Of a stretch of 64,000 nucleotides of DNA, positions 15,001-18,000 are shown in pieces. Position numbers: made by a program. Position 1 is the stretch's first letter; each line of letters opens with the position of its first letter. The stretch is from assembly GCF_030013205.1 (NCBI RefSeq), contig NZ_CP122648.1. One strand, written 5' to 3'. Source of the DNA: Escherichia coli (lineage in GTDB: Bacteria > Pseudomonadota > Gammaproteobacteria > Enterobacterales > Enterobacteriaceae).

Positions 15001-18000
15001 TACTGGTGAGTGCGTTACGCCAGGCCGTGAACTGGGCAAAGGTGGCGAAGGCGCGGTTTATGATATCGAGGAGTTTGCCGATAGCGTCGCCAAGATTTAT
15101 CACACGCCGCCACCCGCCTTAAAACAGGACAAACTTGCCTTTATGGCTGCGACAGCTGACGCACAGTTGCTGAATTATGTCGCCTGGCCGCAGGCAACGC
15201 TTCACGGTGGACGAGGCGGAAAAGTTATTGGTTTTATGATGCCAAAAGTTTCTGGTAAAGAACCGATTCATATGATCTATAGCCCGGCACATCGTCGTCA
15301 ACGTTACCCTCATTGTGCGTGGGATTTTCTACTCTATGTTGCGCGCAATATTGCTTCATCTTTTGCTACGGTTCACGAGCACGGGCATGTCGTGGGTGAC
15401 GTAAACCAGAACAGCTTTATGGTAGGCCGTGACAGCAAAGTGGTGTTGATTGATAGCGACTCCTTTCAGATTAACGCCAATGGCACGCTGCATTTATGCG
15501 AAGTCGGCGTGTCGCATTTTACGCCGCCAGAGCTGCAAACATTGCCATCATTTGTCGGTTTTGAACGTACCGCGAATCACGATAATTTTGGCCTTGCGTT
15601 GCTGATTTTTCACGTCTTGTTTGGTGGGCGGCATCCTTATTCCGGTGTACCGCTTATCTCTGATGCGGGTAATGCGCTGGAGACGGATATTGCCCATTTC
15701 CGTTATGCCTACGCGTCAGATAATCAGCGACGTGGTTTAAAACCGCCGCCACGATCGATTCCGCTGTCGATGTTACCGGGCGATGTTGAAGCCATGTTTC
15801 AGCAGGCATTCACGGAAAGTGGCGTGGCAACCGGGCGTCCGACGGCAAAAGCGTGGGTAGCGGCACTTGATTTACTACGCCAACAGTTAAAGAAATGTAC
15901 CGTTTCGGCAATGCATGTTTACCCCGCTCATTTGACTGACTGCCCGTGGTGTGCGCTGGATAATCAAGGCGTTATCTATTTTATTGATCTCGGCGAAGAG
16001 GTCATTACCACCGGCGGGAATTTTGTGCTGGCGAAAGTCTGGGCGATGGTGATGGCGTCAGTAGCACCGCCAGCATTGCAATTGCCATTACCCGATCATT
16101 TCCAGGCTGCTGGCAGGCCGCTTCCTTTAGGCCTGTTACGGCGCGAATACATCATTCTGATTGAGATCGCACTGTCAGCGTTATCGCTGTTGCTTTGCGG
16201 CCTTCAGGCAGAACCGCGTTATATCATTTTGGTTCCCATGCTGGCGGCTATCTGGATTATTGGCAGCCTGACAAGCAAAGCGTACAAAGCAGAAATCCAG
16301 CAACGCCGTGAGGCATTTAATCGCGCGAAAATGGACTATGACCATTTAGTCAGCCAGATCCAACAGTTGGGCGGGCTGGAAGGTTTTATCGCCAAACGGA
16401 CGATGCTCGAAAAAATGAAGGACGAAATTCTTGGGTTACCGGAAGAAGAAAAACGTGCTCTGGCAGCACTTCAGGACACCGCAAGGGAACGGCAGAAGCA
16501 GAAGTTTCTGGAGGGATTTTTTATTGATGTTGCCTCTATTCCCGGCGTTGGCCCTGCGCGTAAAGCTGCGTTACGGTCCTTTGGTATTGAAACGGCGGCA
16601 GACGTTACCCGACGGAGCGTTAAGCAAGTGAAAGGTTTTGGTGATCATCTGACCCAGGCGGTTATCGACTGGAAAGCGAGTTGCGAACGCCGTTTTGTTT
16701 TCAGGCCGAACGAAGCGGTAACGCCTGCAGACAGACAAGCGGTAATGGCAAAAATGGCCGCCAAACGACATCGGCTGGAATCGGCGCTGACTGTCGGTGC
16801 GACAGAGTTGCAGCGATTCCGCCTTCATGCTCCAGCACGGACCATGCCGTTGATGGAACCGTTACGTCAGGCGGCAGAAAAACTGGCTCAGGCGCAGGCT
16901 GATTTAAGCCGCTGCTGAGCCATTTTTCAATTAACGAAACACCACTTCCGCCCAGCGTGCCAGCCCGGCGGTGACGGAGCCAAAGTCATCGCCGCCTGCA
17001 ATCGGAATGCCCGGCAACTGTTCTGCCAGCGCTTTTTTAATCAGCGGCGAACGGGCGCTACCGCCGGTCAGGTAGATGACATCCGGTTTTTCCTGGGCGT
17101 TATCCAGGGCCAGTTGCACCTGTTCCAGAATCCGCATCAGTGGCTGGTTGAGGGCGCTTTCCAGCCCTTGCTGGCTAATCAGCGTAGCCAGTTCATCGCT
17201 GATAAACGGCAGTGAGGCGCGGGTTTCCGCTACGCTTGAAAGCGCAATTTTGCTCTCTTCTGCGCTACGTACCAGGCGATAGCTTAAACGCTGACGCCAG
17301 ACTTTCTGTAACAGGGCCACTTTTTCCGGTTCGCGGGCATCGCGTACCAGATCGTTAAGCAGACGACCGTTGGCACTACTGTAGAAATCACTTTGCGCAG
17401 GTACGTCGTTGATGGCAACCGCATTCCACCACGGCAGAATCGGCAGGGCGATGCCTTTTTCGGTTTCGCCCCCCATGCCCAGTAACGGCATCAGGTTTTT
17501 AAACGCCAGTGCGATATCCAGATCGTTACCGCCAATACGGCAACCACTGTGACCCAGCAGGCTGGCTTCACGATCGAGACGCGAACGCCACTGCGGCCCC
17601 ATCAGCAGCAATGAACAGTCAGTCGTACCACCGCCGATATCCACCACCAGCACCCGTTTTTCTTCCTGCAAAGTCGCTTCGTAATCCAGCCCTGCCGCTA
17701 CCGGCTCGTACTGGAATACCACATCCTTAAACCCGGCACGCTTCGCCGCGCGTTCCAGAATCCCCTGCGCCTGGGTGTTTGCTTCATCGCCGCCAAGCCC
17801 CTGGAAGTTGATCGGGCGACCAATCACTGCCTGAGTAATTGCCTCCGGCAGTTGAGCCTGCGCCTGCTGGCGAATGTGCAACATCATTGCGCAGACCAGA
17901 TCCTCAAACAGCGCTACCTGCTGCGGTTTTAAGCCGCTGGCACCGAGGAACGATTTTGGTGATTTCACAAACCACACTTCTTCTGGATCATCAATGTACT

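What the first reader, a model, noticed from the sequence alone, without database searches (positions are those of the whole stretch)
16919..16930. Convergent yegI and yegD stop codons separated by only 12 bp
yegI (plus strand) ends at 16918 and yegD (minus strand) ends at 16931, leaving 12 bp with no room for two independent intrinsic terminators. Transcripts from each gene must therefore extend into the other's 3' coding region as antisense. This would allow mutual antisense interference between the kinase operon and the Hsp70-like gene.
Basis: seen in the sequence. Interest (0 to 1): 0.3.

Follow-up and report, generated by a model that had tools for sequence, protein, structure and literature searches.

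The report
Shared two-way terminator hairpin, yegI/yegD
The 12-bp gap between the convergent E. coli genes yegI and yegD is real, but it is the tail of one strong hairpin that looks like a single terminator serving both genes, which is a known and ordinary arrangement.

Summary
yegI (+) stops at 16916-16918, yegD (-) stops at 16931-16933, and the gap 16919-16930 is GCCATTTTTCAA.

Its 8-bp base is UGGCUCAG/CUGAGCCA. It contains the yegI stop codon. AAAAA (16878-16882) lies upstream and TTTTT (16923-16927, inside the gap) lies downstream. This is the anatomy of a bidirectional intrinsic terminator, so one element can serve both genes.

If it works, yegI transcripts end in the gap, yegD transcripts end about 40-55 nt inside yegI, and the 3' overlap is about 55 nt. 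Both stop codons lie within 8 nt of the hairpin or inside it, so trailing ribosomes should weaken it. Read-through antisense therefore remains plausible.

The tight junction has a history. The yegL-pphC-yegI cassette was inserted right after the yegD stop codon in the Escherichia lineage.

The pair is already listed as a convergent excludon of MG1655 (PMC12288877). I found no 3'-end mapping data and no compensatory changes in the hairpin. The finding is ordinary and of low interest.

The parts
14978..16918 (+). yegI CDS (Ser/Thr kinase, 646 aa as annotated; the mechanical ORF starts at GTG 14969). Stop codon TGA at 16916-16918.
16931..18283 (-). yegD CDS (Hsp70-family protein, 450 aa). Stop codon TAA at 16933-16931.
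16919..16930 (.). The 12-bp gap GCCATTTTTCAA. Its first 4 nt finish the 3' arm of the hairpin. The next 5 nt are the T-tract of the yegI-direction terminator.
16884..16922 (.). 39-nt imperfect hairpin, foldable on both strands. The 8-bp basal stem pairs 16884-16891 with 16915-16922. Inner stems pair 16894-16895 with 16911-16912 and 16897-16900 with 16907-16910. The loop is 16901-16906. The yegI stop codon lies in the 3' arm.
   Evidence: Searches folded 86 nt: -32.7 kcal/mol, z -4.56 on the + strand; -30.9 kcal/mol, z -3.30 on the - strand. One search folded the hairpin alone: -24.5 (+) and -21.8 (-) kcal/mol.
16878..16882 (-). AAAAA on the + strand, made by the Glu-Lys codons GAA AAA of yegI. 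On the - strand it is the UUUUU tract of the yegD-direction terminator (tail GUUUUUCUGC).
   Evidence: The tail is identical in 13 of the 14 E. coli sequences compared; strain E69 has GUUUUCCUGC.
16923..16927 (+). TTTTT, the U-tract of the yegI-direction terminator. Variants in other E. coli are UUUUCUUUU and GUUUU.
13451..16930 (+). Approximate extent of the yegL-pphC-yegI cassette relative to Salmonella and Citrobacter. Their homology to the window stops at the yegD stop codon and resumes at the sib promoter region.

Best explanation
The junction holds one bidirectional intrinsic (Rho-independent) terminator shared by the convergent genes yegI and yegD. A 39-nt hairpin (16884-16922) is built from the last 11 sense codons of yegI, its stop codon and the first 4 nt of the gap. 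An A5 run lies upstream and a T5 run lies downstream. Read on the + strand, it is hairpin plus UUUUU, so yegI transcripts should end at about 16929-16931, in the gap. Read on the - strand, it is hairpin plus G-UUUUU, so yegD transcripts should end at about 16875-16877, roughly 55 nt past the yegD stop and inside yegI. The two mRNAs would then share a complementary 3' end of about 55 nt. The arrangement arose when the mobile yegL-pphC-yegI cassette was inserted directly after the yegD stop codon in the Escherichia lineage. The yegI stop codon is inside the hairpin and the yegD stop codon is 8 nt before it. A ribosome close behind RNA polymerase should therefore hinder hairpin folding, so termination is probably partial and depends on translation. 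Shown here: the sequence anatomy, its improbability by chance, its presence across E. coli, and the insertion history. Inferred: that it terminates transcription in vivo, where the 3' ends lie, and that it is leaky.
For: - **Folding.** The hairpin folds far better than shuffled sequence on both strands (z -4.56 and -3.30; 0 of 200 shuffles as good).
- **Flanking tracts.** The inverted repeat AAAACTGGCTCAG / CTGAGCCATTTTT includes both tracts.
- **Chance.** This is the only site in the 64-kb window with a perfect stem of at least 7 bp flanked by A5 and T5. None appeared in 50 dinucleotide shuffles under the strict rule; the mean was 0.12 under a relaxed rule. It sits exactly at the convergent junction.
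- **Single copy.** Median one place per genome, so it is not a repeat family.
- **Variation within Escherichia.** Across 14 Escherichia variants, 92.9% (+) and 89.3% (-) of pair cells are paired, against 18-51% when partners are slid. Five + strand pairs change only from G-C or C-G to a G-U wobble pair.
- **Not forced by the protein.** YegI homologues in Klebsiella, Piscinibacter and Chromobacterium end with the same ..(K/R)(L/V)AQA(Q/N)AD(L/F).. motif but have no such hairpin plus U-tract.
- **E. albertii.** It deleted most of the cassette but kept the last 70 nt of yegI. There the yegD-strand hairpin plus UUUU persists (-15.0 kcal/mol), while the yegI-strand T-tract has decayed to CGUCUCC.
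- **Literature.** yegD-yegI is a convergent excludon of MG1655, and 146 of 165 such pairs have overlapping predicted terminators (PMC12288877).
Against: - I could not obtain any 3'-end mapping for this locus. There is no entry in the held supplements of the E. coli Term-seq paper PMC7815308, and the other supplements are not held.
- No pair shows a compensatory change on both sides, so covariation is uninformative.
- Much of the 5' arm and the A-tract is conserved simply because it codes for a conserved peptide.
- The simple terminator scan did not report the site, because the stem has internal loops.
- The hairpin is longer and more interrupted than typical terminators.
- Terminators this close to a stop codon, or late in a coding region, were strongly repressed by translation in a reporter system (PMC4824070).
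- In one Escherichia clade (L003) the hairpin is weak (-11.1 and -7.7 kcal/mol) and the yegD-side U-tract is UUUCUC.
Confidence: 0.65

Rival explanations
1. There is effectively no termination at the junction. Ribosomes finishing yegI or yegD keep the hairpin unfolded. Polymerases then read far into the opposite gene, producing long antisense RNA. That RNA is eventually ended by Rho or by weak downstream hairpins, and it interferes with the partner gene as an excludon, through RNase III cleavage or polymerase collision.
For: The yegI stop codon is inside the hairpin and the yegD stop codon is 8 nt before it. Terminators in such positions were almost fully repressed in vivo (PMC4824070). The pair is scored as overlapping in at least 50% of 58 transcriptomes. 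Weak terminator-like sites lie further in on both strands: on the - strand at 16775-16757, and on the + strand at 17445-17491.
Against: An overlap call is expected anyway from a 12-bp gap with a shared hairpin, so it does not show long read-through. The A5/hairpin/T5 symmetry is very unlikely by chance. Both genes are barely expressed under standard conditions (PMC13232886), so collisions and double-stranded RNA would be rare. No reciprocal expression of the two genes has been reported.
Confidence: 0.25
2. The hairpin is a by-product with no role in transcription. On this view it results from the conserved LAQAQADLS coding sequence plus whatever sequence the insertion event left next to it.
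For: The 5' arm and the A-tract are coding sequence for a conserved peptide. GAA and AAA are the common E. coli codons for Glu and Lys (my own knowledge). There is no compensatory covariation. The hairpin is weak in Escherichia clade L003.
Against: Homologues with the same peptide motif lack the hairpin. The 3' arm is made of the variable last residues, the stop codon and non-coding bases, and it matches the 5' arm over 8 consecutive bp followed by T5. No such site appears in shuffles. A hairpin with a U-tract keeps the physical ability to terminate whatever its origin.
Confidence: 0.1

Closest known systems
Overlapping bidirectional terminators between convergent E. coli genes (Ju et al. 2019 SEnd-seq, as described in bioRxiv 10.1101/2022.10.23.513370; model pair ynaJ-uspE)
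   Same: A single hairpin-forming region between convergent genes ends transcription from both sides. The two transcripts share a short complementary 3' end.
   Different: Those authors state that their sites do not resemble intrinsic terminators and propose polymerase collisions as the driver. This site has canonical A-tract/hairpin/U-tract symmetry and lies between two weakly expressed genes. Part of it is coding sequence. I could not check whether it is in their list.
Convergent excludons (ExcludonFinder, PMC12288877)
   Same: yegD-yegI is named in Table 1 of that paper among the 165 convergent excludons of MG1655.
   Different: That listing rests on RNA-seq coverage overlap only. No antagonistic regulation of this pair has been shown. 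The overlap predicted here is only about 55 nt.
Intrinsic terminators placed at or inside the end of an ORF (tR2 position series, PMC4824070)
   Same: The distance from stop codon to hairpin is 8 nt or less for yegD, and the hairpin lies within the late coding region for yegI. In these positions ribosomes repress termination.
   Different: That was a synthetic reporter system with phage terminator tR2. This is a natural chromosomal site and was not tested.

Membership tests
Intrinsic (Rho-independent) terminator | Stable G+C-rich stem-loop in the nascent RNA | tested here: met
   The 8-bp basal stem has 5 G-C pairs. The hairpin folds at -24.5 kcal/mol (+) and -21.8 kcal/mol (-). z-scores are -4.56 and -3.30.
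Intrinsic (Rho-independent) terminator | U-rich tract immediately 3' of the stem | tested here: met
   + strand: UUUUUCAAUU directly after the stem. - strand: GUUUUUCUGC.
Intrinsic (Rho-independent) terminator | Lies downstream of the stop codon, clear of the terminating ribosome | tested here: not met
   The yegI stop codon (16916-16918) is inside the 3' arm. The yegD stop codon is only 8 nt before the hairpin. This bears on efficiency, not on whether the element can terminate (PMC4824070).
Intrinsic (Rho-independent) terminator | RNA 3' ends map to the U-tract and are independent of Rho | not testable with these tools
   No Term-seq or SEnd-seq coordinates for this locus could be retrieved.
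Bidirectional terminator | A-tract upstream mirrors the U-tract downstream, so both strands read hairpin plus U-tract | tested here: met
   A5 at 16878-16882 and T5 at 16923-16927. This is the only such site in 64 kb, with none in 50 shuffles.
Bidirectional terminator | Located between convergent transcription units | tested here: met
   It lies at the yegI (+) / yegD (-) junction.
Excludon | Transcripts of the neighbouring opposite-strand genes overlap | not tested
   Taken from the literature only: Table 1 of PMC12288877. The anatomy here predicts an overlap of about 55 nt.
Excludon | Expression of one gene lowers that of the other, through RNase III or transcriptional interference | not testable with these tools
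   No data were found. The only regulatory report is that yegJ overexpression raises yegD in K-12 (PMC13232886).

The most novel reading that the evidence does not exclude
The hairpin is a translation-gated, two-way terminator that evolved in place after a TerY-P-like kinase/phosphatase cassette landed on the yegD stop codon. When yegI is actively translated the hairpin is masked, and read-through antisense RNA silences the Hsp70-like yegD. The reverse would also hold. This would couple a possible defence or stress signalling module to a chaperone gene.
Probability: 0.08. Interest if true: 0.35.

Novelty: already known. Interest (0 to 1): 0.1.

Why it matters
It matters little beyond annotation. 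It shows that a very short convergent gap does not mean there is no terminator, because the terminator can be built partly from the codons of one gene. This refines the reading of one published excludon pair. It also gives exact coordinates for predicted 3' ends that existing Term-seq or SEnd-seq data could confirm. The insertion history is a tidy example of how a newly inserted gene and its neighbour can come to share one terminator: a three-gene VWA/PP2C/kinase cassette dropped right after the yegD stop codon.

Tried and rejected
- **Simple terminator scan.** It did not report the junction hairpin because it needs an uninterrupted stem with a 3-8 nt loop. I replaced it with folding and a custom window-wide scan.
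- **Experimental 3' ends.** Ju et al. 2019 is not held. The supplements of PMC7815308 have no entry for yegD, yegI or coordinates starting 21490. PMC6061677, PMC8848933, PMC12259150 and PMC12288877 have no held supplements.
- **Covariation.** There were zero double-sided changes, so the test is uninformative.
- **Rfam.** Nothing at the junction; the only hits were SIB RNAs.
- **Promoter scan.** No promoter-like sites in 16400-17500, so there is no sign of an internal antisense promoter.
- **Repeat-element idea.** Rejected, because the sequence occurs once per genome.
- **Ancestral yegD terminator idea.** Rejected. Homology with Salmonella and Citrobacter ends at the yegD stop codon, and other genera carry unrelated sequences there.
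- **PADLOC scan of the cassette proteins.** No significant family, only weak kinase similarity (E about 2e-4).

Full report
**Observation.** The + strand ORF (yegI) ends with TGA at 16916-16918. The - strand ORF (yegD) ends with TAA at 16933-16931. The 12 bases between them, 16919-16930, read GCCATTTTTCAA. The stretch is 100% identical to E. coli strain K_EC180 and 96% identical to K-12, and both are annotated yegI / yegD. K-12 MG1655 has the same 12-bp gap, between 2149026 and 2149039. The junction is present in 5407 of 5426 complete E. coli genomes. In 13 sampled genomes the gap is 12 bp or, in one common allele, 11 bp (TTTTCTTT). It is the shortest of the five convergent gaps in the surrounding 41 kb.

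The end of yegI and the start of the gap form a 39-nt hairpin at 16884-16922.
- The basal stem is UGGCUCAG/CUGAGCCA (8 bp).
- Two short inner stems follow, then a 6-nt loop.
- AAAAA lies upstream at 16878-16882 and TTTTT lies downstream at 16923-16927.
- The yegI stop codon lies in the 3' arm.

An 86-nt segment folds at -32.7 kcal/mol on the + strand (z -4.56) and at -30.9 kcal/mol on the - strand (z -3.30). None of 200 shuffles folded as well. The repeat finder reports the arms AAAACTGGCTCAG / CTGAGCCATTTTT. The simple terminator scan did not list the site, because its stem is interrupted.

I ran a custom scan of the whole 64-kb window for perfect stems of at least 7 bp flanked by A5 and T5. 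It found only this site. Fifty dinucleotide shuffles gave none under the strict rule and a mean of 0.12 under a relaxed rule. The sequence occurs once per genome, so it is not a repeat family.

**Reading.** A hairpin with an A-tract before it and a U-tract after it reads as hairpin plus U-tract on both strands. That is the anatomy of a bidirectional intrinsic terminator.
- yegI transcripts should end at about 16929-16931, inside the gap.
- yegD transcripts should end at about 16875-16877, about 55 nt past the yegD stop codon and inside the last codons of yegI.
- The two mRNAs would share about 55 complementary nucleotides.

The conclusion, that both transcripts must run into the other gene, holds for yegD only, and only for a short distance. 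These 3' ends are predictions. I could not retrieve any 3'-end mapping for this locus.

**Is the hairpin forced by the protein?** It is not. YegI homologues from Klebsiella, Piscinibacter and Chromobacterium end with the same ..(K/R)(L/V)AQA(Q/N)AD(L/F).. motif. Their genes have no equivalent hairpin and U-tract. In E. coli the 5' arm is the LAQAQA coding sequence, and the A-tract is the Glu-Lys codons GAA AAA. The 3' arm is made from the variable last residues (SRC), the stop codon and four non-coding bases.

**History.** YegI relatives with at least 91% identity are confined to Escherichia. The next best are 63% (Klebsiella) and 57-60% (betaproteobacteria). In those genomes the same three genes (VWA, PP2C phosphatase, kinase) travel together among unrelated neighbours.

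Eighty yegD loci from other species were fetched. Only three Escherichia genomes carry yegI next to yegD. In Salmonella and Citrobacter, homology to the window stops exactly at the yegD stop codon (16931). It resumes at about 13450, the sib promoter region. The cassette, about 13451-16930, was therefore inserted right after the yegD stop codon. This explains the tight tail-to-tail junction. Other genera have unrelated sequences after yegD, including canonical terminators in Buttiauxella and Kosakonia.

E. albertii has deleted 13633-16848 but keeps the last 70 nt of yegI. There the yegD-strand hairpin with UUUU persists (-15.0 kcal/mol), while the yegI-strand T-tract has decayed. That fits a role as the yegD terminator. 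It could also be an accident of where the deletion ended.

**Variation.** Among 14 Escherichia variants the basal stem is nearly invariant within E. coli. Overall, 92.9% (+) and 89.3% (-) of pair cells are paired, against 18-51% for slid controls. No pair changes on both sides, so covariation neither supports nor contradicts the structure. One divergent clade (L003) has a much weaker hairpin.

**Efficiency.** Reporter work with terminator tR2 showed almost complete repression when the hairpin was a few bp after a stop codon. Function returned fully only beyond about 30 bp, and terminators late in coding regions were partly repressed (PMC4824070). Here the yegI stop codon is inside the hairpin and the yegD stop codon is 8 nt before it. 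Termination is therefore probably partial when a ribosome follows the polymerase closely. Read-through antisense remains a live rival, but for this reason and not because a terminator is absent. Both genes are weakly expressed in standard growth (PMC13232886), which limits any interference.

**What is known.** yegD-yegI is named among the 165 convergent excludons of MG1655, and 146 of those have overlapping predicted terminators (PMC12288877). Bidirectional terminators between convergent E. coli genes are an established class. The finding is therefore an ordinary, already catalogued arrangement. The new details are the exact anatomy and the insertion history.

**Verdict.**
- Observation: confirmed.
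- Interpretation: partly supported.
- Best explanation: a shared, probably leaky, bidirectional intrinsic terminator (confidence 0.65).
- Novelty: already known.
- Interest: 0.1.

Noticed in passing
window 12612-12754, 12940-13082, 13269-13417 (- strand): This strain has three tandem SIB RNA / ibs toxin-antitoxin copies (149.5, 142.2 and 140.2 bits) between mdtA and yegL. K-12 has two, sibA and sibB.
   Followed up: partly
window 13564-16918 (yegL, pphC, yegI); loci L083, L084, L085: The three genes encode VWA, PP2C and Ser/Thr kinase proteins, which is the TerY-P triad architecture. The same cassette occurs in Klebsiella spallanzanii. It also occurs in Piscinibacter beside BrxR and JetB genes, and in Chromobacterium beside a KAP NTPase. 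That context suggests a mobile, possibly defence-related module. PADLOC v2 gave no significant match.
   Followed up: partly
window 14220-14981 / 14978-16918: pphC and yegI overlap by 4 nt and there is no yegJ between them. K-12 has yegJ inserted there on the opposite strand, as noted in PMC13232886.
   Followed up: no
window 19275-19311: The next convergent junction, alkA/dgcE, has a 37-bp gap holding a single REP-like hairpin, GCCTGAT-ACGCCGC-ATCAGGC. The K-12 gap is 108 bp. This pair is also listed as an excludon.
   Followed up: no
L005 4354-4600; L002; L095; L097: yegI is decaying in several lineages. E. albertii has an internal deletion of window 13633-16848. In Escherichia sp. E1V33 the match to YegI is split into two segments overlapping at aa 509-517, consistent with a frameshift. 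Strain 7_12_15B has a CAG to TAG change seven codons before the normal stop, which widens the gap to 32 bp. Strain I3 has a deletion that truncates both yegI and yegD.
   Followed up: partly
window 16757-16775 (-) and 17445-17491 (+): Weak terminator-like hairpins (5-bp stems plus T runs) lie inside yegI on the yegD strand and inside yegD on the yegI strand. They could catch read-through. Five sites were found in 1.1 kb, against 1.7 +/- 1.2 in shuffles.
   Followed up: no
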